IMG/VR virus record: IMGVR_UViG_2537562015_000005
Location: 1-27,033 of that record
Direction: 5' to 3' (one strand)
Source: a virus
Taxonomy: Duplodnaviria > Heunggongvirae > Uroviricota > Caudoviricetes
DNA length: 27,033 nt
Shown: positions 1 through 14,139 of the stretch, one piece after another
Layout of the letters: each line of letters begins with the position of its first letter
How positions within the stretch are numbered: the stretch's first letter is position 1
Program-made: the position numbers and the translations under genes
Notes under the pieces: model-generated
The model's database searches: none
What the model saw: the letters and a program-made list of their open reading frames with translations, nothing else
Told to the model about the DNA's origin: nothing

Positions 1-722
1 TTCCCGTAATTAAGATCAAGCCAGTAAGCGCGTACCCCCGTATACGCTTCGCGGTCAGCAATGCGGAACTGATGGCGATCGCCACTGCTGCGCGTGATGG
101 CGAACGAGGGCAACGGCTGGCCCTGTGCGTTCACGCCACCGCCTGGCATGATGAATAACAGATTACCGCTTTTTACCGTGGTGATTGCGCCCAACATTTC
201 CGCCATGCGCGTAAGGAAGGACATGTCGCTTTCTTCGGTCTGGTCGGCGTGGTCGATTTCGATATCCATCAGCATTTCGCTGATTTGCGGTTTCAGACCG
301 TACCGATGAGCGATGGCGGATACCACACGCTCAACGGTCACATCATGCCAGGACACCTCACGTTTAACGTTAAATTCATCCCGAAAATCTGCGCTTCTGG
401 CTGAAACAGTCAGCCTGTCCGGCGGTCCTTCGTGAGCGATTTCATCAACAATGTAAGTGCCTTTTTCTGTCAGCGGTTCTCCTTTCCAGCCAATGAGAAC
501 CGTCAGGCGCGCGCCCCGTGGCGGTAGCTGCAACTGACCATCCGCATCATCCAGCGTGATGGTGAGCTGGTCCGCCTCAAATCCCCGGTTGTCGGTCAGT
601 GACAGGCTCATCAGGCGCTCTGCCACGCCTGACAGCGTTTTACCCTCCGCGAGAATATCAAAATCCGGCATTTTCACGGGGTCTGTGCCCTGACTGAGCA
701 ATTGCATGGTGGTGTCGGTCAT
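1..722 (-). CDS. D: P2-like phage tail protein gpD (late control D family), N-terminal ~240 aa; continues past the left edge
   Basis: Reverse-strand frame opens at ATG 722..720 behind a GGGAGGGAG RBS and stays open to position 1 (hand-translated: MTDTTMQLLSQGTDPVKMPDFDILAEGKTLSGVAERLMSLSLTDNRGFEADQLTITLDDADGQLQLPPRGARLTVLIGWKGEPL...). Matches P2 gpD as recalled from memory. Not in the ORF track because no stop lies in the window. Confidence 0.8.
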   Translation of the reverse strand, partial: MTDTTMQLLSQGTDPVKMPDFDILAEGKTLSGVAERLMSLSLTDNRGFEADQLTITLDDADGQLQLPPRGARLTVLIGWKGEPLTEKGTYIVDEIAHEGPPDRLTVSARSADFRDEFNVKREVSWHDVTVERVVSAIAHRYGLKPQISEMLMDIEIDHADQTEESDMSFLTRMAEMLGAITTVKSGNLLFIMPGGGVNAQGQPLPSFAITRSSGDRHQFRIADREAYTGVRAYWLDLNYG

Positions 723-879
723 CTGCTCCCTCCCTGTGCGGCATGGTCGCATGTGCGTGCGGAGGGGGTTACTGCTTTTTGTTGTCGCCGTGGCGGGAGA
801 ACGGCGCAGGGGTGAGATTACGCGCGTGGTGGGTGATGATTGTTGCCGAATCATTTAACGGATACAAGGGGCTGAAGCT

Positions 880-2065
880 ATGAGTGAAACTCGTTTTCAT
901 GGTGCCCGTGTTACGGAAAATACCGACCTGGTAACAGCGATTAACGATGTTGATTCCAGCGTTATCGGTATCGTGGCAACGGCGGATGATGCGGACGCGA
1001 AGCTGTTCCCGCTGAACAAGCCCACACTGCTGACCCGCGTCAATGACGTGCTGGGAAAATGCGGGAACAACGGGGACGCTTTATCGTGCGCTTAAGGCCA
1101 TCGCAGACCAGGTGAGCACAAAGGTGATCGTCGTTCGCGTGGCTGAACACAAAGAAGAAGACGGAAAAACGCAGGATCAACTGGTTATCGGTGGTTCTGA
1201 ATCTGACGGCAGCTATACGGGGATGTATGCGCTGCTTGTTGCAGAGCAGGATGAAAGCATCGGATACCGTCCGCGTATTCTGGCCGCGCCGGAGCTGGAC
1301 ACGGAGGCGGTAACAAAATCCCTGTGCGTGATTGCGGGTAAACTGCGCGCGTTTGTGTATGCCTCATGTCACGGCTGTAACACGATGGCTGAGGCGATTA
1401 CCTACCGCCAGAAATTCAACGAACGTGAGGTGATGCTCTTATGGCCGGACTTCATCGCCTACAACCCGAAAAGTGGCAAAAACGAAACGTTCCCCGCGCC
1501 TGCCTATGCGTGCGGCCTTCGTGCGTACATTGACCATGAGCAGGGTTGGCACAAATCGCTGTCCAACGTTCCGGTTAAAAATGTGCTGGGGATGTCCAGG
1601 CATGTGTTCTGGTCGTTGCAGGCCGAAGACAGTGATGCCAACAGCCTCAACAACAAAGAAATCACGACCATTATTCGTCGCAACGGGTTCCGCTTCTGGG
1701 GCAACCGCACACCGGAAACGAACGCCTACATCTTTGAGGTGTATACCCGAACCGCACAGGTGCTGGCTGATTCAATTGCGGAAGCGCAGTTTGAAACCAT
1801 CGATAGTCCACTGACGCCTGCGAACGTGAAGGATGTTATCAGTGCCATCAGGGCAAAACTGGATTCACTGGTGACTGCCGGGAAACTGATTGGGGCGTCG
1901 TGCTGGTATGACGTGGTGGATAACAGCACCACGAATTTACGTCAGGGGCGTGTGCATATTCGCTACAAATATACGCCCGTTCCTCCGCTGGAAGACATGG
2001 AGCTTTACCAGTCGTTTACTGATGAATTCTTTGGTCCCGCATTTGCGGTGCTGGGAGGTGCCTGA
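880..2065 (+). pseudogene. FI: P2-like tail sheath protein FI, frame-disrupted: 880..1095 and 1043..2065 are the same gene in two frames
   Basis: Both ORFs match P2 FI colinearly (MSETRFHGARV...FPLNKPTLLTRVNDVLGK then AGTTGTLYRALKAIADQV...WGNRT...YKYTPVPPLE). The frame switches at GGA AAA T GCG (extra nucleotide near 1060). The 1043..2065 ORF alone would give an N-terminally truncated sheath. Confidence 0.85.
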
Positions 2066-2577
2066 TGGCTGTACCAAAACATCTTCGCTTTTTTACGCTG
2101 TTTGTGGATGGTGAAAACGAAGTGGGTAAGGTGACGTCCGTCACCCTGCCTAAACTGACGCGCAAAACCGACAGCTACCGGGGTGGTGGCATGATGGGTG
2201 CGGTAAGTATTGATCTCGGTCTGGACGACTCCGCGCTTGATGCGAGCTTTGTCATGGGGGGCGCAGTTCGTGAGCTGTTCCTTAAGTATGGCGGCACGAT
2301 TGACGGCACGCTACTGCGTTTTGCGGGTGAATACTACACCGATGCAGAAAGCGACCTGTATGAAGTCGAAATGCGCGGACGCGTGACGGAAATTGATATG
2401 GGGGAAGCCAAACAGGGCGAAGCCACATCACACACTTACGCCATTAAAAACACCTACTACAAGCTGAGTGTTAACGATCGTCCGTTGTGGGAGATTGACC
2501 TGCTGAACTTCATTTACCGGAAGGACGGCAAGGACATTGTGCCCGATCGCATCCGTTCCGCGCTTGGGCTTGGCTGA
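2065..2577 (+). CDS. FII: P2-like tail tube protein FII
   Basis: 170 aa; start overlaps the FI stop. Matches P2 FII (LPKLTRK..YRGGGM..DLGLDD..LRFAGEY..EVEMRGR..EIDMGE). Confidence 0.85.
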   Translation: MAVPKHLRFFTLFVDGENEVGKVTSVTLPKLTRKTDSYRGGGMMGAVSIDLGLDDSALDASFVMGGAVRELFLKYGGTIDGTLLRFAGEYYTDAESDLYEVEMRGRVTEIDMGEAKQGEATSHTYAIKNTYYKLSVNDRPLWEIDLLNFIYRKDGKDIVPDRIRSALGLG

Positions 2578-2631
2578 TAAGTAATATGCAGGCGGCGCAG
2601 TGCGTCGCCTCTGACTGAAAGGAGTTTCCTG

Positions 2632-2997
2632 ATGAAAGAGACGAAAAACATCGATACCGAAAACACGGTAGTTGCTGACACTGTGAAAGAAACCAGTGAG
2701 CGTGGCGTAAAACTTACCCAACCAATTGAGCGAGGCGGCGAAAAAATCACGTATGTGGAGATCACCGGGGCTATTGAGCAGGCTGGATCTCTGCGAGATT
2801 TGTCGCTGTCTGATGTGCTGAATCTGAAAGCGGAATCCATGTTTACGCTGCTGTCACGAGTGACATCACCGCGACTGGATGAAGTGACGATCAAAAAAAT
2901 GGCATCCCGTGACTTTATTCAGTTATGTGTGGTTGCCGTAAATTTTTTGAGCGGTGCGGACTCTGGCGGGAAGAACGAACAGGCGACGGAAGCCTGA
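2632..2997 (+). CDS. E: P2-like tail assembly chaperone gpE
   Basis: 121 aa; position between tube and tape measure; contains the T TTT TTG slippery heptamer near its 3' end. Confidence 0.8.
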   Translation: MKETKNIDTENTVVADTVKETSERGVKLTQPIERGGEKITYVEITGAIEQAGSLRDLSLSDVLNLKAESMFTLLSRVTSPRLDEVTIKKMASRDFIQLCVVAVNFLSGADSGGKNEQATEA

Positions 2998-3161
2998 TCA
3001 CGGTTGTGTGCTTTGAGCACATAGAAGACTTTGTGGCAGATATTGCCGTTATTTTTAACTGGTCGCCCGCCGAAATCTTCATGATGACGCCCGGCGAAGT
3101 GGTTAGCTGGCGTGAGCGGGCGGCACTTCGCAGCGGGAATGCAGACAATGAAGACTCTTGA
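2632..3161 (+). CDS. E': gpE+E' fusion made by programmed -1 frameshift (join 2632..2948 with 2949..3161 in the -1 frame)
   Basis: Slippery TTTTTTG at 2943..2949. The -1 frame continues as ERCGLWREERTGDGSLITVVCFEHIEDF...WRERAALRSGNADNEDS and stops at 3161, overlapping the T start, as in the P2 E/E' arrangement. Confidence 0.7.
2943..2949 (+). other. Programmed -1 ribosomal frameshift slippery site (T_TTT_TTG) of the gpE/E' pair
   Basis: Heptamer read directly; frames on either side verified by hand translation. Confidence 0.7.
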
Positions 3162-5955
3162 TATCCGGGTCGCTTTCAGCGCCGTTGACAGGCTGACCCA
3201 GCCTGCCGAAAACGCCCGCCGCCTGATGGGGCAGTTTGGTGACTCCATCCAGCGAACGCAGGGGGCGATCAAAAATCTCGAGCGTCAGGCGCGTTCATTT
3301 GAGCGCGCCCGCGACGCTGTCAGTAAAGCGGATGCGGGTATCGTGAAAGCACGACGCCAGCTTAACGCCCTTAATCAGTTACAACGCACGGGTACAGTGC
3401 TCAGCGAAAAACAACAAAAGCTGATGCAGCAGTTAAGCACCCGGCTTGAACGCCTGAATGAATCGCGCACGCGGGAAATTCAGAAAATGCGGGAGCTTGG
3501 CGGAGAGCTGAAACGCCACGGCATTTCCCTGACAGGCAGCGATAACACCATCCAGCAGGCCATCAGACGCACCGAACAGTACAACAATCAGCTTGAACGC
3601 GAACGGCAGGCGCTTGCGCGTGTAACGCGGGCGCGTGAGCGGTATTCGCGCGCGCAGGAAACAGCGGGAAAACTGAAAACAGGTGGTGCACTGGCAATTG
3701 GTGCGGCAGCGGCGGGCGGCTATGCTGCCGGGCGTTTTTTGCAGCCTGCGATCGGGTTCGGGAAAGAGATGTCCCGCGTTCAGGCACTGACGCGAATCGA
3801 CCAGAACAGCCCGCAGTTTAAGGCGCTGCGTGAGCAGGCGTTAAAACTTGGCTCTGAAACGCAGTTCACCGCAGGCGATGCCGCCAGTGGGCAGGCATTT
3901 CTGGCAATGGCTGGCTTCACACCGCAGGCCATTCAGGCTGCGCTTCCCGGCGTGCTGAGCATGGCAACGGCTGGCGGTATGGACCTTGGCGAGACGGCAG
4001 ATATTGGCTCAAATATCCTGACGCAGTTCGGCCTCTCCGCTGACCAGATGGACCGGGTCGGTGACACGCTTACAGCAGTGTTTACCCGTACTAACACTGA
4101 CCTTCGCGCACTGGGCGAAACCATGAAATATGCAGGTCCGGTGGCGGGTAAGCTGGGAATATCGCTGGAGCAGGCCGCAGCGATGGCGGGCGTGCTGGCG
4201 AATATGGGTATCAGAGGGAGTGATGCCGGGACGGCAATGCGTGCCAGCCTGGCTCGTCTGGCATCACCGCCAAAGGCGGCAGCAGAAGCGCTGAAAGAGC
4301 TGGGTGTGTCCGTCTCTGATGCGAACGGCAAAATGCGCCCGATGGAAGATGTGCTGGCCGACCTTTATAAAGCCACCCGTAAATACGGGGAAGTTGACCG
4401 GGTATCGTTCTTTAAGGACATTGCCGGGGAAGAGGCTTTCACGTCGTTTATGGCTCTCGTTGATGCGGCGGGTGACGGCTCCCTGCCCAAACTGAGAAAA
4501 GAACTTGAGGGCGCACGCGGTGAGGCTGAACGCACGGCAAAGGTTATGGCCAATAACCTTGATGGCGACCTGAAATCACTCGGCAGTGCATGGGAAGGGC
4601 TGCGTATCCGCATTGCAGATCTGATTGATGGTCCGCTGCGTTCTGTCACGCAGTGGCTCACGCGGGTGGTCTCAAAGGTGACGGCGCTGGCACAGGCCCA
4701 TCCGGTACTGACGCGCCAGTTACTGATAGCAGGCGGTGCGCTGCTGGCAATGACTGCAACGGTTGGCTCGTTGTCGCTGGTTATTGGAGTGCTTCACGGG
4801 AAGCTGGCCACGTTGCGTCTTGGTTTTTCTCTCCTGACCGGATCAATGAATGCTGTCAGGCTCCTGCCAGCACTATGGGGAATGGTGACGGGTTCCGTTT
4901 CGTTACTGGGGGGCGCTATCGGGGCGCTGTTCAGCCCGGTCGGATTGATTGCTGCTGCGTTTGTGGCTGCGGCAGTTCTCATCTGGAAATACTGGGAACC
5001 CATCAAGGCGTTTTATGCCGGGGTGTTCAGCGGGATTATGGAGCGGCTGGCCCCGTTACGCGAAACCTTTGAACGGTTTGGTCCTGTTTTTGACGCAATC
5101 GGAAGCGGGATAAGTCAGGTGTTTAACTGGTTTAAATCGTTGCTGTCACCGATGGAGTCCAGCAAGGAAACGCTGGATAAATGTACCAGTGCTGGCGAGA
5201 TATTCGGTAACGTTCTTGGCGGTGCGTTACAGCTTGTTCTGACGCCCGCAAAAATGTTGCTGGATACGCTGGCGTGGATACTTGAAAAACTCGGTGTGCT
5301 TCCGGATGAAGCGGAAAGGGCGAGAAAGAAAATCGAAGACGCACAGCGTGCGGCCATTCTTCAGGACAAGGTTGCTCTGTTTCAGGGAGACATTGCGAAA
5401 ATCAATCCGCCGAAGTCTGCGGAAAATGGCAATGGCACCGGAGGTGATAAACCCAAAGACAATAAACCGCTCACAGACAGCAATACCGGTACGCTACGCA
5501 GACTCAGCAAAATTGCTGATAACACAGGTAAGCTGGTTGATGAGACGAAAAAACGTATTGGCCCCGGCGATATTGTCTTTAAGAACCTGCCCCGCGCACT
5601 TGCCGTTCGTGGGGAGTGGCAGGAGCGGAAGATTGTGCAGGTCAGTAAGCCTGCCCCCGCAATTAATATCACACCCGTGGTCCCGGCTCCGCTGCCTCCG
5701 GCGCTGGTCCCTGTTGTTGCGGCCAACTCCCGCCCGGTGGCGGAGGCCATACGATCTCCAGTGGCATCAGTTCCTGTAACTTCCCGTAACCGGGAGCCTG
5801 TTGCCTCCGGATTTGGTGGTGAAATTCATGTTCATCTGCATAACGTTGTTACGCAGAATCCCCGCGAACTGGCGAAACTGGTCGGTGAAATGGTCAGGGC
5901 AGAAATGGAACGGCGCGCCCGTGCCGGGCGTGGCAGTTTTTACGATAAAGATTGA
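3112..5955 (+). CDS. T: P2-like tail tape measure protein gpT
   Basis: 947 aa; coiled-coil-rich N-terminus, central hydrophobic/glycine-rich stretch (LLIAGGALLAMTATVGSLSLVIG...), location after E/E'. The track start at 3112 is GTG; ATG at 3139 or 3148 are alternative starts. Confidence 0.85.
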   Translation: MSGRHFAAGMQTMKTLDIRVAFSAVDRLTQPAENARRLMGQFGDSIQRTQGAIKNLERQARSFERARDAVSKADAGIVKARRQLNALNQLQRTGTVLSEKQQKLMQQLSTRLERLNESRTREIQKMRELGGELKRHGISLTGSDNTIQQAIRRTEQYNNQLERERQALARVTRARERYSRAQETAGKLKTGGALAIGAAAAGGYAAGRFLQPAIGFGKEMSRVQALTRIDQNSPQFKALREQALKLGSETQFTAGDAASGQAFLAMAGFTPQAIQAALPGVLSMATAGGMDLGETADIGSNILTQFGLSADQMDRVGDTLTAVFTRTNTDLRALGETMKYAGPVAGKLGISLEQAAAMAGVLANMGIRGSDAGTAMRASLARLASPPKAAAEALKELGVSVSDANGKMRPMEDVLADLYKATRKYGEVDRVSFFKDIAGEEAFTSFMALVDAAGDGSLPKLRKELEGARGEAERTAKVMANNLDGDLKSLGSAWEGLRIRIADLIDGPLRSVTQWLTRVVSKVTALAQAHPVLTRQLLIAGGALLAMTATVGSLSLVIGVLHGKLATLRLGFSLLTGSMNAVRLLPALWGMVTGSVSLLGGAIGALFSPVGLIAAAFVAAAVLIWKYWEPIKAFYAGVFSGIMERLAPLRETFERFGPVFDAIGSGISQVFNWFKSLLSPMESSKETLDKCTSAGEIFGNVLGGALQLVLTPAKMLLDTLAWILEKLGVLPDEAERARKKIEDAQRAAILQDKVALFQGDIAKINPPKSAENGNGTGGDKPKDNKPLTDSNTGTLRRLSKIADNTGKLVDETKKRIGPGDIVFKNLPRALAVRGEWQERKIVQVSKPAPAINITPVVPAPLPPALVPVVAANSRPVAEAIRSPVASVPVTSRNREPVASGFGGEIHVHLHNVVTQNPRELAKLVGEMVRAEMERRARAGRGSFYDKD

Positions 5956-5961
5956 GGAGTC

Positions 5962-6456
5962 ATGGCCATGATGATGATCTACGGCATGTTTGTTTTTGAG
6001 CTGCGCACGCTGCCGCATCAGCAGTTACAGCAAAACAAAAGCTGGCGGCATGTGAAAAATGAACGCGTTAACCGTTCAGCAAGCTGGCAGTATATCGGTG
6101 CAGGTGATGATCGCATCGTTCTTTCTGGTGTGCTTTATCCTGAAATTACAGGTGGCGAAGTGTCGCTGTCGCTGCTGACCACGCAGGCGTATACAGGACG
6201 ACCCTGGCCTTTGATTGATGGCGTCGGGCAGATTTACGGCATGTATGTCCTGACCGGAACGAACACGACCCGTTCCGAGTTTGATCGCTACGGTAAGGCG
6301 AAAAAGATAGAATTTTCACTGACCCTTGAACGCTGTGATGAGGATTTGCGGGAGCGCCTGCAATCCTCATCGTTCAGCGATATGCTGTCCGGCTTCAAAG
6401 ATAAAGTGACATCATCCCTTAACAGCGCGGCCAGTTCAGTTAAAGGGCTGTTCTGA
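5962..6456 (+). CDS. U: P2-like tail protein gpU
   Basis: 164 aa directly after T; resembles P2 gpU N-terminus (MMMIYGMFVFELRTLPHQQLQ...). Confidence 0.75.
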   Translation: MAMMMIYGMFVFELRTLPHQQLQQNKSWRHVKNERVNRSASWQYIGAGDDRIVLSGVLYPEITGGEVSLSLLTTQAYTGRPWPLIDGVGQIYGMYVLTGTNTTRSEFDRYGKAKKIEFSLTLERCDEDLRERLQSSSFSDMLSGFKDKVTSSLNSAASSVKGLF

Positions 6457-6618: not shown

Positions 6619-6843
6619 ATGCTGAATAATAGAGATATGAATATTAATGAACTTAAAGACTGTATTCACTATGAAGTAATCGGTAGCGAGCGTCCTTTCT
6701 CCTGGCGAAAGGCAATTGTTCGCGCAATAAAACATAGAAGACTTCGTTATTTATTTTGGTGGCGCATAGCCAAATACCTTTTTGATAAAGGCGGATACTG
6801 CCGGAAGATTGCGGGGAAAATAGAACGTTTCATTCTTGGGTAG
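6619..6843 (+). pseudogene. N-terminal fragment of a putative hexapeptide-family (CysE/WbbJ-like) acetyltransferase, cut by IS1
   Basis: AT-rich 74-aa ORF with a helical N-terminal pattern (...LRYLFWWRIAKYLFDKGG..RKIAGKIERFILG) like the N-terminus of sugar O-acetyltransferases. Its stop codon TAG (6841..6843) lies inside the IS1 terminus (IS1 starts 6839). Family assignment is tentative. Confidence 0.3.
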
Positions 6844-6853
6844 TGACTCCAAC

Positions 6854-7357
6854 TTACTGATAGTGTTTTATGTTCAGATAATGCCCGATGACCTTGTCAT
6901 GCAGCTCCACCGATTTTGAGAACGACAGTGACTTCCGTCCCAGCCTTGCCAGATGTTGTCTCAGATTCAGATTATGTCGCTCAATGCGCTGAGTGTAACG
7001 CTTGCTGATAACGTGCAGCTTTCCCTTCAGGCGTGATTCATACAGCGGCCAGCCATCCGTCATCCATACCACGACCTCAAAGGCCGACAGCAGGCTCAGA
7101 AGACGCGCCAGTGTGGCCAGAGTGCGTTCACCGAAAACGTGCGCCACAACTGTCCTCCGTATCCTGTCATACGCGTAAAACAGCCAGCGCTGACGTGATT
7201 TAGCACCGACGTAGCCCCACTGTTCGTCCATTTCCGCGCAGACAATCACATCACTGCCCGGTTGTATGCGCGAGGTTACCGACTGCGGCCTGAGTTTTTT
7301 AAGTGACGTAAAACCGTGTTGAGGCCAACGCCCATAATGCGGGCAGTTGCCCGGCAT
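6854..7357 (-). CDS. insB: IS1 transposase InsB (expressed as InsAB' by frameshift)
   Basis: 167 aa [18 protein letters not shown]...; canonical IS1 insB. Confidence 0.9.
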
Positions 7358-7551
7358 CCAACGCCATTCATGGCCATATCAATGATTTTCTGGTGCGTAC
7401 CGGGTTGAGAAGCGGTGTAAGTGAACTGCAGTTGCCATGTTTTACGGCAGTGAGAGCAGAGATAGCGCTGATGTCCGGCGGTGCTTTTGCCGTTACGCAC
7501 CACCCCGTCAGTAGCTGAACAGGAGGGACAGCTGATAGAAACAGAAGCCAC
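7276..7551 (-). CDS. insA: IS1 InsA
   Basis: 91 aa [39 protein letters not shown]...; canonical IS1 insA. Confidence 0.9.
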
Positions 7552-7760
7552 TGGAGCACCTCAAAAACACCATCATACACTAAATCAGTAAGTTGGCAGC
7601 ATCACCCAGGTTTGGCTCGAATAAAAGGTAAAACATTTGGTGCGTTACCGTTAGATAACAATAATCCATTTTGGCTAGATAATGATGCCGCCCCAGGGTT
7701 AAAAAAGAGCCTGGGGGATGTCACTAAGGCTGCATTTGATTTATGTGATAAGTAACTAAA

Positions 7761-8762
7761 ATGTCGGTTCGTAAGATTCCATCAGGTAAATGGCTTTGCG
7801 AATGTTATCCCTACGGGGCATCGGGAAAACGCATTCGTAAACAGTTTGCGACAAAAAGTGAGGCGCTCTCTTATGAGCGCCGTTTAATGAATAGTAGAGT
7901 TGGAGACGAGTTTCAAGATGGTTCTGGTCCTCGTCTTTCTGAGTTGATTGCTCGTTGGTTTGAGATGTACGGTAAAACCTTGTCCTCTGGTGCAGAGCGC
8001 AAAGTCAAACTTGAGGCGATTTGTTCCAGGCTGGGAGATCCATTTGCTTCTCAGTTTGACAAAAATATGTTTGCCACTTATCGGGAAAGAAGGTTATCAG
8101 GAGAGTGGAATCCCAAGGGGAAGAAAAAACTTAGTGAAGCAACCGTTAATCGCGAGCAGTCATATCTACATGCTGTTTTTGCCGAACTGAAGCGCCTTGG
8201 GGAGTGGTCTGGTGAAAACCCCCTGACTGGTATTCGCAAGTTTCGTGAGGAAGAAAAGGAACTGGCGTTTCTGTATGTAGATGAGATTGAACGCCTTCTG
8301 ATTGCGTGTGATGAGTCACGGAATAAAGATTTGGGGGTTGTTGTCCGTATTGGGCTTGCGACTGGTGCTCGGTGGAGTGAAGCAGAAGGGTTAAAGCAAT
8401 CTCAAGTACTGCCCGGTCGAATCACATTTGTTAAAACTAAAGGAAAGAAGAACCGCACTGTACCGATTTCACCTCAATTGCAGGCTATGCTTCCCAAAAA
8501 ACGAGGAGCGCTATTTTCACCATGTTATGAGGCTTTTGACGCTGCAATTAAGAGAGCGAAGATCGAGCTTCCTGATGGGCAATTAACTCATGTGCTACGT
8601 CACACGTTTGCCAGTCATTTTATGATGCGGGGCGGAAATATTCTTGTGTTGCAAAAAATACTGGGGCATAGCGATATAAAAATGACTATGCGTTATGCGC
8701 ATTTTGCTCCAGGTCATTTAGAGGCTGCTGTTGAATTGAACCCTTTTGACAATAGAGGGTAA
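7761..8762 (+). CDS. int: P2-type phage integrase (tyrosine recombinase)
   Basis: 333 aa; C-terminal catalytic region ...GARWSEAEGL...TFVKTKGKKNRTVPIS...HVLRHTFASHFMMRGGNILVLQKILGHSDIKMTMRYAHFAPGHLEAAVELNP closely parallels P2 Int as recalled. Sits next to a tRNA 3' fragment. Confidence 0.9.
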   Translation: MSVRKIPSGKWLCECYPYGASGKRIRKQFATKSEALSYERRLMNSRVGDEFQDGSGPRLSELIARWFEMYGKTLSSGAERKVKLEAICSRLGDPFASQFDKNMFATYRERRLSGEWNPKGKKKLSEATVNREQSYLHAVFAELKRLGEWSGENPLTGIRKFREEEKELAFLYVDEIERLLIACDESRNKDLGVVVRIGLATGARWSEAEGLKQSQVLPGRITFVKTKGKKNRTVPISPQLQAMLPKKRGALFSPCYEAFDAAIKRAKIELPDGQLTHVLRHTFASHFMMRGGNILVLQKILGHSDIKMTMRYAHFAPGHLEAAVELNPFDNRG

Positions 8763-8868
8763 AAAGTGGCGATAAAAAGTGACAATAGATTCAAATGGCG
8801 TTGTATAGAGCCATTTTCAAAGTTAATAAAATCATAAGGTTATGATTTATAAATGGTGGTTGATAGTT

Positions 8869-8923
8869 TTTAAAATCCCTCGGCGTTCGCGCTGTGCGGG
8901 TTCAAGTCCCGCTCCGGGTACCA
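8869..8923 (+). other. tRNA-Leu(UAA) 3' fragment (anticodon loop to CCA), attachment-site remnant
   Basis: TTTAAAATCCCTCGGCGTTCGCGCTGTGCGGGTTCAAGTCCCGCTCCGGGTACCA matches the 3' 55 nt of E. coli leuZ as recalled. The upstream sequence cannot form the acceptor or D arm, so this is not a complete tRNA. Confidence 0.75.
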
Positions 8924-8963
8924 TGGGAAAGACAAGAATAATCAAAGCAATAAGCAGTGTCGT

Positions 8964-8990
8964 GAAACCACCTACGGGTGGTTTTTTTGT
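8964..8990. terminator. Rho-independent terminator-like hairpin, possibly bidirectional
   Basis: AAACCACC-TACG-GGTGGTTT followed by a T-run, with an A-run before the stem. Lies between the tRNA fragment and the 3' end of the minus-strand gene 9024..9905. Confidence 0.55.
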
Positions 8991-9023
8991 GCCTGAAATT
9001 CACGCCCTGTGCATATCCTGTGC

Positions 9024-9905
9024 TCACGGGGTGCAATGAGCCGCAATCTCCAGCCTGGCAATGCCGAATCGAACGTGTCGCCTCCAGCATAGAGAACCAG
9101 GCCGCTTTGCCTGTTTTCCGGTACTCTTCCGGGAAGGGTGGCCTGCTGAGCAAGTTGTAATGCTCTGGCCGCCCTTAGTACAAAGTTGCTTAATTCGTGC
9201 AATCACCTCATCTCTGTACTTCTGGTGTCCGCGCATAGCCCTTGGATGGGCAATTCTGAAACAGATTGTATTACCTGTTTTGAACTCCCACAGCTTCCCC
9301 GGAATGACTGAAGAAGTCTCATAACCGCCCAGCTCAGTAAGCACCTGTTTAATGATGTAGTCTGTTCTCCGGGCTCCGGATGCAAAGATCATGAAATCAG
9401 GCTCAAGGTGTTTAATTTGTACCGCCAGCAGCTTCAGCGAGGCTAATATGACTTCCTGCACTTCATTTTGAGGGCGATTGAGAGGGGTCAGTCCGTCGTA
9501 ATCCCACGCCAGTAGATTGGCATACACGATAGCCTGAGGAGGAATATTAAGCTCCCGGGCCAGCCTGAAATGATATTGCGTGAAGCGGCTACGTGATTTG
9601 AGGTTGGTGGTGCCATCATTTTGTACCGGAAGATGTTTCCTGTAACGATCTACAGCTTCTTCAACCACCTGCCCGATGGTGACGTCAGGCATAAGTCCCA
9701 ACACCCGTGATATCGTATTCTTACCATTCAGCGTATTCCAGCCTGCGGTTTCACGTCTAACCAGCATGATTTTTACCGGTGAATGCCAGTATTCTTCAAA
9801 CGGCACGGGTAAAAAGACGCCTGAGTATTTATCTTCATTCAGGTTAAATGACTGGGCGTCAACTTCCTGTAATATCCGTTTGTACGCGTCTAATAGCCTT
9901 TCCAT
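9024..9905 (-). CDS. Hypothetical protein; C-terminal ~60 aa may not be native
   Basis: 293-aa ORF with an RBS; no family recognised. The last ~60 codons (about 9024..9200) are GC-rich and low-complexity (..GGQSITTCSAGHPSRKSTGKQAKRPGSLCWRRH..), unlike the rest of the gene. Confidence 0.5.
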   Translation of the reverse strand: MERLLDAYKRILQEVDAQSFNLNEDKYSGVFLPVPFEEYWHSPVKIMLVRRETAGWNTLNGKNTISRVLGLMPDVTIGQVVEEAVDRYRKHLPVQNDGTTNLKSRSRFTQYHFRLARELNIPPQAIVYANLLAWDYDGLTPLNRPQNEVQEVILASLKLLAVQIKHLEPDFMIFASGARRTDYIIKQVLTELGGYETSSVIPGKLWEFKTGNTICFRIAHPRAMRGHQKYRDEVIARIKQLCTKGGQSITTCSAGHPSRKSTGKQAKRPGSLCWRRHVRFGIARLEIAAHCTP

Positions 9906-9985
9906 TCTTCAATCCTGCCCCGTAATAAAAACACCTTCAGATATATATTATTTTCATGATATCAATCAGATATATGAGGATAAAT

Positions 9986-11185
9986 ATGCAAAAATCCTTC
10001 CGATTCACCAATTCATCCATCAAAGCCCTTCCGGCAAACACAGATACCCGATCTACAGAGCTTGAGGTATCCGATACTGAGGTCATTGGCCTCAAATGCC
10101 TCTCAGGTCGAACGGGTAACAAACGTTTCCTCCTGCGCTACACATTCCACGGTACCAAAAAAAGTATCAGTATTGGCAGATTCCCTGAAATTGATGTGGG
10201 GACAGCCCGTCAGATAGCTCGTCGTCACAAGGAGGCGATTGCACTGGGAAATGACCCTAAGGCAGAACGCGATAATTATCGTGCTATGCCAACGCTTAGT
10301 GAGTTTTTTCACCAGACCTATGTTCCGTTCATCAAACGCCATAAAAAGTCCTGGGATAAGGATGTTCAGCGTTTCACGCAATACATTGAACCTTGTCTGG
10401 GGAAGATACGTTACTGTGACCTTCGGGCCCGGGAAATCCAGCAGGTGCTTTTCGACATGCTTGAGGGTCGTATTCACGGGCAGCAATATGCGCCGTCTAC
10501 CTGTAACAGAGCCCTTGCTATTCTGAAAACGATGGGGCGTTATGCGTTGCGACAGGATGTGCTGGAAAAGAATGAAGCCGATAAGATCCCTTTACTGAAA
10601 GAGAATAATCAGCGGACGCGCTTTTTTGATGCTGATGAGATCAGGCGCATTCTTGACGCTGCTACCCAATATCCCAACAAAGCTGCCGGGGGATTGATAG
10701 CCATGTTGTTGTTAACCGGTACACGCAAAACAGAAATGCTTAATGTCAGGCATGAACATATCGACCGGGCCAATCGTACTCTGTTCATTCCTTATACAAA
10801 AAATGGTCGCAGTCGGACGGTATATCTAAGCGATGCCGCATTATCGATTATTGATGCTATCCCACGAGTTGGCAGTAATCCGTATCTGTTCGCCATTAAG
10901 GATAATGGCAAACCGATATCGGAACCCCGATGGGCATATGAAAAAATACTGGCACAGTGCGGTATAGACAAGAATGAAGTCTGTTTTCACACCACACGTC
11001 ATTCTGTTGCCTCTTTACTGGTTTCGAGTGGTCAATTCAGCCTGTATGACGTTAAAGCCCAACTGGCGCATGCCAGTATTCAGAGTACAGAACGTTACGC
11101 GAAATTAACACCGGAACGTATGCGTCAGACAGGGCAGGGAGTGACTGACCTGCTTCTGAATACTGCGGCTACGAAGCAGATGTGA
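9986..11185 (+). CDS. int: P4-type integrase (tyrosine recombinase)
   Basis: ATG at 9986 preceded by GAGGA (the track ORF starts upstream at 9956 in the same frame). N-terminal arm-binding-type region plus C-terminal catalytic region (..LLLTGTRKTEM..HTTRHSVASLL..ERYAKL). Confidence 0.85.
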   Translation: MQKSFRFTNSSIKALPANTDTRSTELEVSDTEVIGLKCLSGRTGNKRFLLRYTFHGTKKSISIGRFPEIDVGTARQIARRHKEAIALGNDPKAERDNYRAMPTLSEFFHQTYVPFIKRHKKSWDKDVQRFTQYIEPCLGKIRYCDLRAREIQQVLFDMLEGRIHGQQYAPSTCNRALAILKTMGRYALRQDVLEKNEADKIPLLKENNQRTRFFDADEIRRILDAATQYPNKAAGGLIAMLLLTGTRKTEMLNVRHEHIDRANRTLFIPYTKNGRSRTVYLSDAALSIIDAIPRVGSNPYLFAIKDNGKPISEPRWAYEKILAQCGIDKNEVCFHTTRHSVASLLVSSGQFSLYDVKAQLAHASIQSTERYAKLTPERMRQTGQGVTDLLLNTAATKQM

Positions 11186-11215
11186 CTACTTTTTAGCAAA
11201 CTATAAATATGGAGA

Positions 11216-11458
11216 ATGAGGATGCATTTAAAATGCCCACAGTGTGGCAGTTGTAATACATTGATAAGTTCAGCAGGAAAACTGCCATCGATAACCGATA
11301 ATAAACACTCTGGGTATATTAGCCTGGAGTTTTTACCTGAAATACTGAAAGAAATTATTAAGGCTATTAAAAAACTATTTGGATTCCTTGAACAGTGTGA
11401 AAGGAATAATGCTCCAGTGCTTATCTGTATGGACTGTGGATATTATGAAAGAATTTAA
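11216..11458 (+). CDS. Small zinc-ribbon protein, hypothetical
   Basis: 80 aa with paired Cys motifs (CPQCGSC ... CMDCGYY); followed by a strong terminator. Confidence 0.45.
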   Translation: MRMHLKCPQCGSCNTLISSAGKLPSITDNKHSGYISLEFLPEILKEIIKAIKKLFGFLEQCERNNAPVLICMDCGYYERI

Positions 11459-11503
11459 ATAGAAAACCAATAACTGTAAATAATAGTTATGCGGATGTAT
11501 AAA

Positions 11504-11537
11504 AACCTCGATACGTTAATCGTATCGGGTTTTTTGT
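11504..11537 (+). terminator. Rho-independent terminator
   Basis: ACCTCGATACG-TTAAT-CGTATCGGGT followed by TTTTTT. Confidence 0.6.
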
Positions 11538-11553
11538 TTATGAGGATTATTCA

Positions 11554-11925
11554 ATGAAATTTGTCTCGAACTGGCAAGACCTGCCGTCGCTCCTTCTTCC
11601 GGAGTCAGTAATGAGTCTGTTGAAAACAGAGCTGGTACTCCCATTTGAAGATGAATACTCTGCAATGAGTTTCTGGGATGAAGTCGGGGTGACATTAATA
11701 TATGTCGAGCCCGATGATGTACCTGAAGATATTAAAGCGCAGGTATTAAATGTGATTCATCAGTTAATTGCAAATCCAGAATTTGTAGTCCGTCTGACAG
11801 ATGACTATTACCTGATGCTTTCTGTTACGGAAGATAACGGGAACGGTATTTATCTGTTATTTCACCCCGATTGCCCTCTGAAGGGTATTGATTTATTAAT
11901 TTCTATGGCCGAATCACGCTATTAA
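11554..11925 (+). CDS. Hypothetical acidic protein
   Basis: 123-aa ORF; no family recognised. Confidence 0.5.
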   Translation: MKFVSNWQDLPSLLLPESVMSLLKTELVLPFEDEYSAMSFWDEVGVTLIYVEPDDVPEDIKAQVLNVIHQLIANPEFVVRLTDDYYLMLSVTEDNGNGIYLLFHPDCPLKGIDLLISMAESRY

Positions 11926-11950
11926 ACACAAGCAAAACCAGGAACGCAAA

Positions 11951-12484
11951 ATGAGTAAATCAAAATTAGTTAAAAATAATGTTGAGTCAGTTTCGAAGGA
12001 GATTAAAAATGAGGCAGAGGTTATTCATGAAAATCTCAGTGCAGATGAACAAACATTATCTGATGTAAAAGACTATCAGTTGCTCATTGAAACAGGCCAG
12101 GCAGAAAAAATCAGTCCTAAGGCAAGTGGTATGCTGACATGGCAACTGGCGATATCAGAGGTGGATAATGAACTTTATCTTCGTCTGGTGGCAAATGGCT
12201 GTGGAGGGTTGTTCTCTAAGGACTGGATCTCACTTTCAAAGATTGCAACTGTTCTGGAAACACAACCTGCTACCGGCTTCTCATCCGGAGTATTCAGGCC
12301 GCTATTCAAAGGGGCAAGCGCCAACAATGCAGGTTTTCTGGCTGCTGTTTTACGCTCCCCGGATATATGTCTGCTGGAGGCACATCCAGAGAAGTTATTT
12401 ACTCATGTATTATACCCGGACTGGAGGGAGCGGTTGAATAAACTTAATACGATCAGTAGCCAGGAAAAGATTACAGAGGATTAA
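11951..12484 (+). CDS. Hypothetical protein
   Basis: 177-aa ORF; no family recognised. Confidence 0.5.
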   Translation: MSKSKLVKNNVESVSKEIKNEAEVIHENLSADEQTLSDVKDYQLLIETGQAEKISPKASGMLTWQLAISEVDNELYLRLVANGCGGLFSKDWISLSKIATVLETQPATGFSSGVFRPLFKGASANNAGFLAAVLRSPDICLLEAHPEKLFTHVLYPDWRERLNKLNTISSQEKITED

Positions 12485-12566
12485 TTTATTTCCTGCACTG
12501 TTATACAACCAGAAATCACCACACACCACTATTTACTTTCTAAAGGAAAATGGTAGTGACTCCAAC

Positions 12567-13070
12567 TTACTGATAGTGTTTTATGTTCAGATAATGCCCG
12601 ATGACCTTGTCATGCAGCTCCACCGATTTTGAGAACGACAGTGACTTCCGTCCCAGCCTTGCCAGATGTTGTCTCAGATTCAGATTATGTCGCTCAATGC
12701 GCTGAGTGTAACGCTTGCTGATAACGTGCAGCTTTCCCTTCAGGCGTGATTCATACAGCGGCCAGCCATCCGTCATCCATACCACGACCTCAAAGGCCGA
12801 CAGCAGGCTCAGAAGACGCGCCAGTGTGGCCAGAGTGCGTTCACCGAAAACGTGCGCCACAACTGTCCTCCGTATCCTGTCATACGCGTAAAACAGCCAG
12901 CGCTGACGTGATTTAGCACCGACGTAGCCCCACTGTTCGTCCATTTCCGCGCAGACAATCACATCACTGCCCGGTTGTATGCGCGAGGTTACCGACTGCG
13001 GCCTGAGTTTTTTAAGTGACGTAAAACCGTGTTGAGGCCAACGCCCATAATGCGGGCAGTTGCCCGGCAT
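12567..13070 (-). CDS. insB: IS1 transposase InsB
   Basis: Identical to 6854..7357. Confidence 0.9.
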
Positions 13071-13264
13071 CCAACGCCATTCATGGCCATATCAATGATT
13101 TTCTGGTGCGTACCGGGTTGAGAAGCGGTGTAAGTGAACTGCAGTTGCCATGTTTTACGGCAGTGAGAGCAGAGATAGCGCTGATGTCCGGCGGTGCTTT
13201 TGCCGTTACGCACCACCCCGTCAGTAGCTGAACAGGAGGGACAGCTGATAGAAACAGAAGCCAC
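12989..13264 (-). CDS. insA: IS1 InsA
   Basis: Identical to 7276..7551. Confidence 0.9.
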
Positions 13265-13314
13265 TGGAGCACCTCAAAAACACCATCATACACTAAATCA
13301 GTAAGTTGGCAGCA

Positions 13315-14139
13315 TCACCCAGAGTATACAATGCTTAAAATTATGGCGTTACTTATATTATTAATTGCAGTTGGGTAAATATGCAGGTTGCTTATCAATT
13401 CTGAAAGGCAAAGTAAAACACCAGTGATGTTAGGTTTTCTGCCAGATATTGTGGTGGTGTTGAAAATGTGCCGATTCTTACGACTTATATTGACAAATTT
13501 ATGAGTGCAGAACTCTATATGTTCGACGATTTTATCTTGACTATTTTTAATGTATTTTGAAATGTTAGTGATTCGTCCATTCAACGTTAGCTCATCAAGT
13601 AATATGTCATTTTTAATACTGCGAATTTCATCGCAATGTTTAGATTCAAAAACTATCTCATGTAATACATAACTCGACGTATTGCGGGGTGACGCTGATA
13701 TGTAATCTAAAATAGAAGGCTCGATTTTGATTTTTTGTTTGTATTTTTTAATGCACTGTTTGATTATTTTTTGTAGAGTATTTGAGATGTGTTTTTTATA
13801 TTCTTTTAGAAAATCATGCTCTAAAAAGAGTGAGGAGAAGATCAACTGCTGGCGAGATAATTTAATCTCAGGCTTGATCAATTTAATCCGGAAAACTCTT
13901 CCCTCCAACTCATAGCTGAACATGGAAGATAAGTCATAGTGGGGTGATAAATGTTCGAGTAACGACATTCGTGTATTCATTAGCCGCTTGAATTTATGGT
14001 CAGCATACATAAGTATTTTTTTTATTTGCTCATCGTAAAGTGGGCCGATAACGCAATTAGCAATACTCATACTATCCGGAGACCTCCAGTCAACAGGGGA
14101 ATCACATTGACGGCCACCATTACAATCAAAGGGTATCAA
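13315..14139 (-). CDS. AT-rich hypothetical protein (K/I/N-rich), probably truncated at the 3' end by IS1; likely start near 14071 (MSIANCVIG...)
   Basis: Visibly AT-rich ORF, foreign to its neighbours. Its stop codon (13315..13317) lies inside the IS1 terminus (IS1 ends 13319). Divergent from hsdM. No family recognised. Confidence 0.5.
   Translation of the reverse strand: MIPFDCNGGRQCDSPVDWRSPDSMSIANCVIGPLYDEQIKKILMYADHKFKRLMNTRMSLLEHLSPHYDLSSMFSYELEGRVFRIKLIKPEIKLSRQQLIFSSLFLEHDFLKEYKKHISNTLQKIIKQCIKKYKQKIKIEPSILDYISASPRNTSSYVLHEIVFESKHCDEIRSIKNDILLDELTLNGRITNISKYIKNSQDKIVEHIEFCTHKFVNISRKNRHIFNTTTISGRKPNITGVLLCLSELISNLHIYPTAINNISNAIILSIVYSG

What the first reader, a model, noticed from the sequence alone, without database searches (positions are those of the whole stretch)
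6839..13319. Two identical direct IS1 copies without target-site duplications, each abutting a truncated ORF
Copy 1 (6839..7606) and copy 2 (12552..13319) appear identical over 768 bp and lie in the same orientation, 4.9 kb apart. None of the four flanking 9-mers match, so neither copy is a simple insertion and the pair is not a freshly transposed composite. The outer end of each copy terminates an ORF one or two codons inside the IS (6619..6843 plus strand; 13315..14139 minus strand). Together with the missing P2 functions between gpU and int, this points to IS1-mediated deletions or inversions having shaped the locus. The third, inverted and divergent IS1 fragment at 21924..22300 provides a substrate for further inversion.
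Basis: seen in the sequence. Interest (0 to 1): 0.45.

Follow-up and report, generated by a model that had tools for sequence, protein, structure and literature searches.

The report
IS1-anchored deletions in prophage–pipolin island
Two identical copies of the jumping gene IS1 mark where an enterotoxigenic E. coli strain lost about 16-19 kb of a defective prophage and 10.6 kb of a neighbouring mobile island; this is a well-documented example of an ordinary, long-known process.

Summary
IS1 copies at 6839-7606 and 12552-13319 are 768/768 identical, lie in direct orientation, and share no target-site duplication in any flank pairing. Each outer end supplies the stop codon of a truncated ORF.

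The window is the tRNA-Leu (leuZ) hotspot of ETEC strain E1739: a P88-like prophage remnant next to a pipolin defence island. Sister genomes that are about 99.9-100% identical let me reconstruct the history.

- **IS-free state:** strain B2C has no IS1 at either site. It carries 18,775 bp where copy 1 sits and 10,564 bp where copy 2 sits.
- **Copy 1:** it is a simple insertion with a perfect 9-bp duplication (TCATTCTTG) in the two sister genomes checked. Its left joint is shared by eight genomes. Its right joint is unique to E1739.
- **Copy 2:** its left joint is shared only with E54, which has lost a further 18 kb to the right.
- **Wider pattern:** related strains show at least 12 different IS1 joints here, in nested sets that each keep one IS end fixed.

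So IS1-anchored one-sided deletions are strongly supported. I found no inversion of genes in the window. Whether the route was transposase-mediated adjacent deletion or IS1-IS1 recombination is unresolved. This is a known phenomenon and of low novelty.

The parts
1..6456 (.). Surviving tail module of a P88-like (Xuanwuvirus) prophage. gpD is on the minus strand; FI, FII, E, E', T and U are on the plus strand.
   Evidence: RefSeq annotation of E1739. Window 1-6461 aligns as one collinear piece at 95-97.5% identity to phage P88, PhiR44_2 and others.
6637..6838 (+). 5' stub (67 of 181 codons) of a prophage-borne hexapeptide-repeat acetyltransferase gene. The stop codon TAG (6841-6843) is supplied by the IS1 IRR.
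   Evidence: The gene is intact in B2C, FORC_031 and 254D-1. Pfam Hexapep and NCBIfam acetyltransferase hits. Translation.
6839..7606 (-). IS1 copy 1 (IS1-A). The left (IRR) joint is the original insertion joint. The right (IRL) joint is a secondary deletion joint.
   Evidence: 768/768 identical to copy 2. The same insertion has the 9-bp duplication TCATTCTTG in E1620 and E925. The left joint is in 8 genomes; the right joint is only in E1739.
7607..7755 (+). 3' stub of the prophage DUF2511 gene, with its first 199 bp lost.
   Evidence: Window 7607 aligns to REF 34994, inside the intact 348-bp gene of B2C. Annotated as partial.
7761..8762 (+). Prophage tyrosine integrase, intact but now orphaned.
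   Evidence: Annotation WP_001300279.1. Tyrosine recombinase hits.
8869..8990 (+). Middle att repeat: a copy of the 3' part of tRNA-Leu(taa) plus downstream sequence. It is the boundary between the prophage and the pipolin.
   Evidence: 96.8% identical over 124 columns to the genuine tRNA-Leu region. A third copy lies next to yecA in E54. Three att repeats are described for pipolin plus myovirus tandems (PMC7385651).
9168..12551 (.). Left end of the pipolin kept between the IS copies: a pseudogene (9168-9905, minus strand), an integrase (9986-11185, plus) and two small ORFs (11554-11925 and 11951-12484, plus).
   Evidence: Annotation. 100% identical and collinear with B2C REF 34994-39938. Recombinase hits.
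12552..13319 (-). IS1 copy 2. It replaces 10,564 bp of the pipolin, including the piPolB gene.
   Evidence: The left joint is shared only with E54. The right joint is only in E1739.
13320..14136 (-). 5' part (about 272 of 410 codons) of a pipolin ORF of unknown function. The stop codon TGA is supplied by the IS1 IRL.
   Evidence: The ORF is full length (1,233 bp) in B2C, E925 and FDAARGOS_1077. Only a sub-threshold AbiJ_NTD4 hit. Translation.
21924..22299 (+). Old IS1A-like fragment (IRL half), inverted relative to copies 1 and 2. It is cut off by the adjoining fragment of an IS3-type (integrase-core) transposase gene.
   Evidence: 97.6% identical to the full copies and 99.2% to K-12 IS1A. Present unchanged in every relative examined, including B2C, which has no full IS1 at the two window sites.

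Best explanation
The window is the tRNA-Leu (leuZ) integration hotspot of ETEC strain E1739 or a near-identical sibling. It holds a defective P88-like prophage in tandem with a pipolin defence island.

**Shown by comparison with sister genomes**
1. IS1-A inserted normally into a prophage acetyltransferase gene and made the 9-bp duplication TCATTCTTG.
2. In E1739 alone, everything from the IRL end of IS1-A to the middle of the DUF2511 gene was then lost. That is 16.3 kb measured against the E925-like sister state, or 18.8 kb against B2C. The lost DNA carried tail-fibre, baseplate, head, terminase, replication and immunity genes.
3. A second IS1 in the pipolin now replaces 10.6 kb. That segment carried DUF2787, DUF726, a WYL regulator, piPolB, a second tyrosine recombinase and two further ORFs. 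It also carried the 3' end of a 410-aa ORF.
4. Both events are one-sided deletions that end exactly at an intact IS1 terminus. This explains the missing duplications and the ORFs that stop inside the inverted repeats.

**Inferred**
- The most likely route is intramolecular replicative transposition 'in cis' by the IS1 InsAB' transposase, the classical IS1 adjacent deletion. I put this at about 60:40 over RecA recombination with a transient second IS1 copy.
- Copy 2 lies in the opposite orientation to the older pipolin IS1 seen in sister strains. It therefore arose in one of two ways. One is a fresh insertion at its left joint. The other is an inversion-type ('in trans') event. Either was followed by a rightward deletion that removed the old copy.
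For: **Identity of the locus**
- Window = E1739, covered at about 100% identity.
- B2C has no IS1 at either site. It is 100% identical on the inner block and 99.85-99.97% on the outer blocks, which are collinear. It carries 18,775 bp and 10,564 bp at the two IS positions.

**Joint distribution among 5,426 complete E. coli genomes**
- Perfect 9-bp duplication around IS1-A in E1620 and E925.
- J1 (left joint of copy 1) is in 8 genomes.
- J2 (right joint of copy 1) is only in E1739.
- J3 (left joint of copy 2) is in E1739 and E54.
- J4 (right joint of copy 2) is only in E1739.

**Nested series with one IS end fixed**
- J3 fixed: the right joint is at REF 50503 in E1739, and 17,981 bp further on, inside hhe, in E54.
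- IRL joint at REF 42776 fixed: the right joint is at 49143 (E925) or 53200 (FORC_031, 254D-1).
- IRR joint at 49143 fixed: the left joint is at 42776 (E925) or 17158 (E1620).

**Other support**
- All full IS1 copies examined at this locus in these lineage strains are 768/768 identical. They carry intact insA, the A6C frameshift motif and insB'.
- There is no microhomology at the joints I inspected (J2 in particular), and every IS end is complete.
- The deleted segments do not appear as full copies elsewhere in E1739.
- Literature: deletions without duplications are the expected product of in-cis intramolecular replicative transposition, and the IS1 family appears to use it (PMC4471558, citing Turlan & Chandler 1995).
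Against: - The final products of transposase-mediated adjacent deletion and of IS1-IS1 homologous recombination are identical, so sequence alone cannot separate them.
- J2 and J4 each rest on one strain. The window does differ from the RefSeq record at 10 sites, so it may be a second assembly.
- The order of events rests on parsimony over joints and a few SNPs (14015A is shared with E1648), not on a whole-genome phylogeny.
- The states of E8, E1433, E1654, 360D-1 and TW10598 were inferred from search rows and not inspected base by base.
- Searches list only the top rows. They exclude a full-length relocated copy in E1739, but not small fragments.
Confidence: 0.85

Rival explanations
1. The same deletions arose by RecA-dependent homologous recombination between IS1-A (or the pipolin IS1) and a second, same-orientation IS1 that had first inserted at the far end of the lost segment. 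The hybrid IS1 left behind has mismatched flanks.
For: - These strains have at least 40 IS1-matching pieces per chromosome, all examined copies identical, so new insertions are frequent and recombination substrates are perfect.
- E1739 itself now carries two direct copies 4.9 kb apart, which is exactly the kind of intermediate this route needs.
- An unrelated strain, NCTC9080, shows an independent simple IS1 insertion with an 8-bp duplication in the same 410-aa ORF. IS1 therefore does land in this region.
Against: - No genome among 5,426 carries an IS1 at the J2 or J4 position in any other context.
- Each of at least 10 secondary joints would need an extra insertion in the right orientation followed by recombination. 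The in-cis route needs one step per joint.
- IS1 is a classical adjacent-deletion former (my own knowledge: Reif & Saedler 1975; Turlan & Chandler 1995, the latter cited in PMC4471558).
Confidence: 0.35
2. The IS1-4.9 kb-IS1 unit is a Tn9-like composite transposon that inserted here as a unit.
For: Two full, identical IS1 copies in direct orientation bracket a 4,945-bp segment, as in Tn9.
Against: - There is no duplication around the unit.
- The inner segment (DUF2511 stub, integrase, att, pipolin left end) and both outer flanks lie in the same order and orientation as in B2C, which has no IS1 at either site.
- J1 and J3 exist separately in other strains that lack the other joints.
Confidence: 0.01
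3. Assembly artefact: the assembler jumped between IS1 copies and dropped the intervening DNA.
For: J2 and J4 are seen in a single strain. The record is a chromosome-level 'whole genome shotgun' assembly.
Against: - The 'missing' DNA does not appear as a full copy elsewhere in the E1739 records.
- J1 and J3 are reproduced in independent assemblies.
- The same kind of clean, nested deletion is seen in about 10 other assemblies from different laboratories.
- A 768-bp repeat is trivially spanned by long reads.
- The window differs from the RefSeq record at 10 sites yet has the same joints.
Confidence: 0.03
4. Horizontal replacement: E1739 acquired a shorter version of the island or prophage by recombination with another strain, rather than deleting DNA in situ.
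For: The tRNA-Leu site is a busy hotspot, occupied in 21% of E. coli genomes according to PMC11551731. One SNP (26706, in IS100) conflicts with the other markers.
Against: - The retained DNA is identical, or differs at only 1-4 sites, compared with sister strains.
- The joints are private to E1739 or shared only with E54 among 5,426 genomes, so no donor is visible.
- Every breakpoint coincides exactly with an IS1 end.
Confidence: 0.03

Closest known systems
IS1 adjacent deletions / intramolecular replicative transposition in cis (Reif & Saedler 1975 and Turlan & Chandler 1995, from my own knowledge; the latter is cited in PMC4471558)
   Same: - One IS end and its flank stay fixed.
- DNA contiguous to the other end is lost up to a new target.
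- The IS terminus stays intact to the last base.
- No target duplication is left.
- Related isolates show nested series of endpoints.
   Different: Nothing differs in kind. Here the process is read from natural isolates, not from a selection experiment. Dependence on the transposase is not shown.
IS26-driven plasmid reorganisation by intramolecular replicative transposition (He et al. 2015, PMC4471558)
   Same: The logic of inference from flanking sequences is the same. Abutted duplications mean simple insertion, missing duplications plus lost DNA mean an in-cis deletion, and inverted matched repeats mean an in-trans inversion.
   Different: The IS family differs (IS6 versus IS1) and the setting is chromosomal. 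No matched inverted repeats survive here, so the inversion step proposed for copy 2 remains untested.
Tn9-type composite transposon (direct IS1 repeats flanking cargo)
   Same: Two identical IS1 copies in direct orientation bracket a 4.9-kb segment.
   Different: There is no flanking duplication. The cargo is the native neighbouring DNA in its native order. The two copies have separate histories. The unit is therefore not a transposed composite, although it could in principle transpose or recombine out.
E. coli pipolins at tRNA-Leu with a co-integrated myovirus prophage (strains H10407 and 2014EL-1346-6; PMC7385651, PMC11551731)
   Same: - Same integration site between pgsA and yecA.
- Three att repeats.
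- The same defence cargo: type I RM, a DUF262 pair and hhe.
- The 10.6-kb segment missing from the window is 100% identical in 2014EL-1346-6 and 98.3% identical in H10407.
   Different: The window's element has lost the defining piPolB gene, the inner tyrosine recombinase and the WYL regulator. It is a pipolin remnant.

Membership tests
IS1 family insertion sequence | A 768-bp element with imperfect terminal inverted repeats of about 23 bp | tested here: met
   The ends are GGTGATGCTGCCAACTTACTGAT and GGTAGTGACTCCAACTTACTGAT. The length is 768 bp for both copies.
IS1 family insertion sequence | insA and insB' reading frames joined by a -1 frameshift at an A6C motif | tested here: met
   The 91-codon insA is intact, AAAAAAC lies at IS position 307, and the insB' frame is open. 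RefSeq annotates an 'IS1 family transposase, programmed frameshift'.
IS1 family insertion sequence | Sequence similarity to reference IS1 | tested here: met
   94.4% identity to K-12 IS1A over 768 bp with no gaps. The element is mosaic: about 100% in the insA half and about 88% in the insB half.
IS1 family insertion sequence | An 8-9 bp target-site duplication at a simple insertion | tested here: not met
   Not present in the window for either copy. For copy 1 it is met in sister genomes E1620 and E925 (TCATTCTTG). This shows the window state is secondary.
IS-anchored adjacent (one-sided) deletion | One joint is shared with relatives while the other is novel, and the lost DNA was contiguous to the IS in the ancestor | tested here: met
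   J1 is in 8 genomes and J2 in 1. J3 is in 2 genomes and J4 in 1. The mapping onto B2C shows contiguous losses at REF 16219-34993 and 39939-50502.
IS-anchored adjacent (one-sided) deletion | The breakpoint lies exactly at the terminal IS nucleotide, with no microhomology | tested here: met
   All joints end at ...CATCACC or ...CACTACC. The target contexts at the window's joints share no bases with the old flank.
IS-anchored adjacent (one-sided) deletion | Dependence on transposase and independence of RecA | not testable with these tools
   This needs genetics. It is what would separate the event from IS1-IS1 homologous recombination.
Composite transposon (Tn9-like) | A target duplication flanking the whole IS-cargo-IS unit, and a unit that is foreign to the site | tested here: not met
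   The outer flanks TCATTCTTG and CAGAGTATA match at 1 of 9 positions. Cargo and flanks are collinear with B2C, which lacks both IS1 copies.
Pipolin | Encodes a primer-independent family-B DNA polymerase (piPolB) | tested here: not met
   The 866-aa gene is present in B2C (REF 43526-46126). RefSeq names it a type-B DNA polymerase in other genomes, and Pfam DNA_pol_B_2 gives only E=0.009. It lies inside the 10.6 kb missing from the window.
Pipolin | att-like direct repeats with one overlapping tRNA-Leu, plus tyrosine recombinase(s) | tested here: met
   An att copy lies at window 8869-8990, the genuine tRNA-Leu lies upstream of the window, and a third copy lies by yecA in E54. The integrase is at 9986-11185. 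The criteria are taken from PMC7385651.
P88-like peduovirus (Xuanwuvirus) prophage | Collinear nucleotide similarity to sequenced members of the genus | tested here: met
   Window 1-6461 matches as a single piece at 95-97.5% identity to P88, PhiR44_2 and Xuanwuvirus P884B11. Only the tail module and the integrase remain, so the prophage is defective.

The most novel reading that the evidence does not exclude
The pipolin IS1 changed orientation between sister strains. It is (+) in E925, E1620 and FORC_031 and (-) in E1739, E54 and E1648, and the (-) joints lie outside the (+) joints on both sides. This would fit an in-trans duplicative inversion followed by an in-cis deletion. If so, the locus records both outcomes of IS1 intramolecular replicative transposition in natural isolates.

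Separately, 4 of 12 secondary joints begin with CAG, against 2 of 90 background IS1 flanks. That could reflect a target preference specific to intramolecular events.
Probability: 0.15. Interest if true: 0.35.

Novelty: already known. Interest (0 to 1): 0.2.

Why it matters
The value here is as a worked example, not a discovery.

- **Speed of decay:** About 15 nearly identical genomes carry at least 12 distinct joints. This shows how fast IS1 can dismantle mobile elements and their cargo.
- **What E1739 lost and kept:** E1739 lost the pipolin's hallmark polymerase, its inner recombinase and its WYL regulator. E1739 kept its type I RM, DUF262 and Hhe genes. Some sister strains lost hsdM, or the whole RM-DUF262 block and part of hhe.
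- **Link to an open question:** a pipolin paper (PMC11551731) left open the unexplained deletions, the suspected IS elements near the integrases and the link to prophage co-integration in Enterobacterales pipolins. This lineage offers a concrete case.
- **Annotation:** the two ORFs that end inside IS1 are gene stubs, not genes.

Tried and rejected
1. **Prophage inversion.** D and ogr lie on the minus strand while FI-U lie on the plus strand, unlike P2, so I suspected an IS1-mediated inversion. Rejected: B2C, which has no IS1 at that site, has the same layout, and P88-like phages have it in one collinear piece.
2. **Hidden duplications.** I looked for target duplications in every direct and inverted combination of the five flanks at 8-10 nt. 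There are none.
3. **Relocation instead of loss.** I searched all E. coli genomes with 7.9 kb of the lost prophage region and with the full 10.6-kb pipolin segment. E1739 is not among the full-length 99.9-100% hits. The first attempt, with the B2C version of the prophage segment, was uninformative. The E925-type prophage has different internal deletions and would not rank high.
4. **CAG at the joints.** Four of 12 secondary joints begin with CAG. I scanned genome contigs for the IRL end and found 90 distinct flanks, only 2 of which begin with CAG. There is a mild purine preference at position 2 and a G/C preference at position 9. This is not a general IS1 preference, the sample is small, and it stays unexplained.
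5. **Defence content of the deleted genes.** PADLOC found only the WYL regulator. Pfam and NCBIfam gave DUF2787, DUF726, WYL and a weak PolB hit.
6. **Literature on E1739.** The search found nothing relevant.
7. Searches failed because window = L001 - 7999, not - 8000. The cause is a 1-bp difference between the window and the RefSeq record.

Full report
**1. Observation**

The two IS1 copies are real and are exactly as described. Window 6839-7606 and 12552-13319 are 768/768 identical, on the same strand, with 4,945 bp between them.

- **Structure of the element.** Each copy has the IS1 ends GGTGATGCTGCCAACTTACTGAT (IRL, at the right in the window) and GGTAGTGACTCCAACTTACTGAT (IRR, at the left). 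Each has an intact insA, the A6C frameshift motif and an open insB' frame. The element is 94.4% identical to K-12 IS1A. It is mosaic: about 100% in the insA half and about 88% in the insB half.
- **Flanks.** The four flanks are TCATTCTTG|IS|CAGGTTTGG and AAGGAAAAT|IS|CAGAGTATA. No pairing gives more than chance matches, whether direct or inverted, at 8 to 10 nt, with or without the third fragment.
- **Truncated ORFs.** The plus-strand ORF ends at TAG 6841-6843, inside the IRR. The minus-strand ORF ends at a TGA inside the IRL (plus strand 13315-13317).
- **Third element.** It spans 21924-22299, is 376 nt long, is inverted, and is 97.6% identical to the full copies.

**2. Where the window comes from**

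The window matches the chromosome of enterotoxigenic E. coli E1739 (NZ_CM180506.1) over its full length. It differs from that record at only 10 sites, all between 180 and 5726.

The locus lies just downstream of pgsA-glyW-cysT-leuZ. Reading from the left it holds:

- a prophage remnant: hok, ogr, gpD, and FI-FII-E-E'-T-U;
- a stub of an acetyltransferase gene;
- IS1 copy 1;
- a stub of a DUF2511 gene and a phage integrase;
- a copy of the 3' part of tRNA-Leu (window 8869-8990);
- a second integrase and two small ORFs;
- IS1 copy 2;
- a stub of a 410-aa ORF;
- a type I restriction-modification system, an M48 peptidase and the IS1 fragment;
- two DUF262 genes;
- an hhe gene split by IS100.

The prophage is P88-like (genus Xuanwuvirus). 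Window 1-6461 aligns as a single piece at 95-97.5% identity to P88 and its relatives. The D(-)/FI-U(+) layout is therefore native and not an inversion.

The island is a pipolin. E. coli pipolins integrate at this tRNA-Leu gene, carry att repeats, and show three repeats when a myovirus shares the site. Strains 2014EL-1346-6 and H10407 are named examples (PMC7385651). Those strains hold the DNA missing from the window at 100% and 98.3% identity.

**3. Reconstruction from sister genomes**

Strain B2C has no IS1 at either site. I used B2C as the reference ('REF', NZ_CP035874.1 2268000-2333182). The window maps onto it in three blocks:

| Window | REF |
|---|---|
| 1-6838 | 9382-16218 |
| 7607-12551 | 34994-39938 |
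| 13320-27033 | 50503-64216 |

- **Copy 1** stands in for REF 16219-34993 (18,775 bp). That DNA holds the rest of the acetyltransferase gene, the tail fibre and what remains of the morphogenesis genes. It also holds the terminase, portal, par and replication genes, the immunity region and the 5' end of the DUF2511 gene.
- **Copy 2** stands in for REF 39939-50502 (10,564 bp). That DNA holds DUF2787, a DUF726 hydrolase and an HTH-WYL-WCX regulator. It also holds a small ORF, the 866-aa PolB-like gene (piPolB), two more small genes and a tyrosine recombinase. The segment ends with a 376-aa ORF and the 3' end of the 410-aa ORF.
- **Copy 1 began as a normal insertion.** In E1620 and E925 it sits at the same position and in the same orientation, with a perfect 9-bp duplication: TCATTCTTG|IS1|TCATTCTTG. 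Measured against this E925-like state, E1739 lost 16,343 bp.

**4. Distribution of the four joints among 5,426 complete genomes**

| Joint | Description | Genomes |
|---|---|---|
| J1 | acetyltransferase stub to IRR of copy 1 | 8: E925, E8, E54, E1433, E1620, E1648, E1654, E1739 |
| J2 | IRL of copy 1 to DUF2511 stub | E1739 only |
| J3 | left joint of copy 2 | E1739 and E54 |
| J4 | right joint of copy 2 | E1739 only |

The only other hit for J4 is NCTC9080, from an unrelated lineage. It has an independent simple IS1 insertion about 300 bp away with its own 8-bp duplication, CGATTTTT.

E54 keeps J3, but its IS1 right end is joined to the 3' part of hhe. That is 17,981 bp further than in E1739.

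**5. The wider series**

The pipolin IS1 of sister strains has these joints:

| Strain(s) | Orientation | Left joint (REF) | Right joint (REF) |
|---|---|---|---|
| FDAARGOS_1077 | (+) | 42744 | 46987 |
| E925 | (+) | 42776 | 49143 |
| FORC_031, 254D-1 | (+) | 42776 | 53200 |
| E1620 | (+) | 17158 (in the prophage) | 49143 |
| E1648 | (-) | 39356 | 50567 |
| E1739 (window) | (-) | 39938 | 50503 |
| E54 | (-) | 39938 | inside hhe |

- Every joint lies exactly at a complete IS end.
- There is no microhomology at the joints I inspected, J2 in particular.
- The joints fall into nested sets that share one fixed joint.
- All full IS1 copies examined at this locus in these lineage strains are identical to the window's copies.

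This is the classical signature of IS1-anchored one-sided deletions.

**6. Order of events (parsimony inference)**

1. FORC_031 and 254D-1 have the (+) pipolin IS1 with the same left joint as E925, but an intact acetyltransferase gene. The (+) copy therefore predates IS1-A.
2. It follows that the (-) orientation in E1739, E54 and E1648 is derived. Those strains also share SNP 14015A where the site is present.
3. Copy 2's left joint (J3) arose either by a new insertion or by an inversion-type intramolecular event. A rightward deletion then removed the old (+) copy and produced J4. No sequence trace remains that could separate these two routes.
4. J2 is the most recent step, because it is private to E1739.

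**7. Deletion or relocation?**

- A 7.9-kb probe from the lost prophage region finds full-length 99.9-100% matches in ten lineage genomes, but not in E1739.
- The 10.6-kb pipolin probe finds 100% matches in four genomes, but not in E1739.

These are losses, not translocations, within the limits of the top-row listings.

**8. Mechanism**

Shown: the deletions are anchored at IS1 ends.

Inferred: the molecular route.

- **Favoured route.** Intramolecular replicative transposition in cis gives exactly this product in one step per joint. It is established for the IS1 family (PMC4471558, citing Turlan & Chandler 1995).
- **Alternative route.** Homologous recombination with a transient second IS1 gives the same product and cannot be excluded.

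I favour the first at about 60:40.

**9. Consequences**

- The prophage keeps only its tail module and an orphan integrase.
- The pipolin has lost piPolB, its inner recombinase and its WYL regulator. It keeps its outer integrase, the att sites and its defence cargo.
- The two direct IS1 copies now bracket both integrases and the middle att site. Recombination between them would remove 5,713 bp. No genome shows that state.
- The IS1A-like fragment at 21924-22299 is present in all relatives examined, including B2C. No relative examined shows an inversion that uses it.

**10. Verdict**

The phenomenon is long known, so novelty and interest are low. Two things remain unexplained. One is the change of orientation of the pipolin IS1. 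The other is a small excess of CAG at secondary joints: 4 of 12, against 2 of 90 background flanks.

Noticed in passing
window 180-5726 (sites 180, 194, 300, 483, 675, 796, 1066, 1117, 1956, 5726): The window differs from the RefSeq E1739 record, and from E925, E1620 and B2C, at 10 private sites: 9 transitions plus an extra A at 1066. The extra A frameshifts the tail-sheath gene FI, which is intact in the record. Eight of the ten sites cluster in 180-1956. The cause could be a different assembly version, a sibling isolate, or a conversion patch.
   Followed up: partly
window 7607-7609 and 13320-13322; also E1648 (L004 17132) and E925 (L002 20552): Four of 12 distinct secondary IS1 joints at this locus start with CAG just outside the IS end, and all four are on the right-hand side. 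Across 90 distinct IS1 IRL flanks from other genomes CAG occurs twice. This is not a general IS1 target preference, and it remains unexplained.
   Followed up: partly
window 12552-13319 versus L002 19784-20551, L003 18555-19322 and L011 35727-36494: The pipolin IS1 lies in opposite orientations in sister strains: (+) in E925, E1620, FORC_031 and FDAARGOS_1077, and (-) in E1739, E54 and E1648. The (-) joints lie outside the (+) joints on both sides. This suggests replacement by a new insertion or a duplicative inversion, followed by deletion.
   Followed up: partly
window 8869-27033, with L005 11533-14133 for the missing gene: The island is a pipolin at tRNA-Leu whose defining piPolB gene (866 aa in B2C) has been deleted. 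Every strain examined that carries a full IS1 in this pipolin lacks piPolB. A pipolin paper reports that piPolB-less pipolins are rare, and leaves deletions near the integrases unexplained (PMC11551731).
   Followed up: partly
L007 19811-20910; L002 1026-1671; L011 18014-18473: The same prophage carries three different internal deletions in its morphogenesis region, none with an IS at the joint. B2C has an I'-M' fusion, the E925 group has V'-N', and the FORC_031 group has J'-O' (annotation).
   Followed up: no
L008 14383-15150 (strain NCTC9080): An unrelated lineage has an independent IS1 insertion in the same 410-aa pipolin ORF, about 300 bp from J4. It is 99.6% identical to the window's IS1 and has an 8-bp duplication, CGATTTTT.
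   Followed up: yes
window 26224-27033: The anti-phage gene hhe (DUF4011) is split by an IS100 insertion. This state is shared by all lineage strains that retain the region. The istB allele of the window matches FDAARGOS_1077 and not its closest sisters (SNP 26706), which hints at conversion between IS100 copies.
   Followed up: no
window 6839-7606: This IS1 isoform is a mosaic relative to K-12 IS1A. The insA and IRL half is 99-100% identical, while the insB half is about 88% identical. The old fragment at 21924-22299 is 99.2% identical to IS1A.
   Followed up: yes
window 17120-17803 and 21137-21892: A YecA/YgfB-family gene sits between hsdS and hsdR, and an M48 metallopeptidase gene overlaps the end of hsdR. 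This unusual type I RM operon layout is conserved in related pipolins.
   Followed up: no
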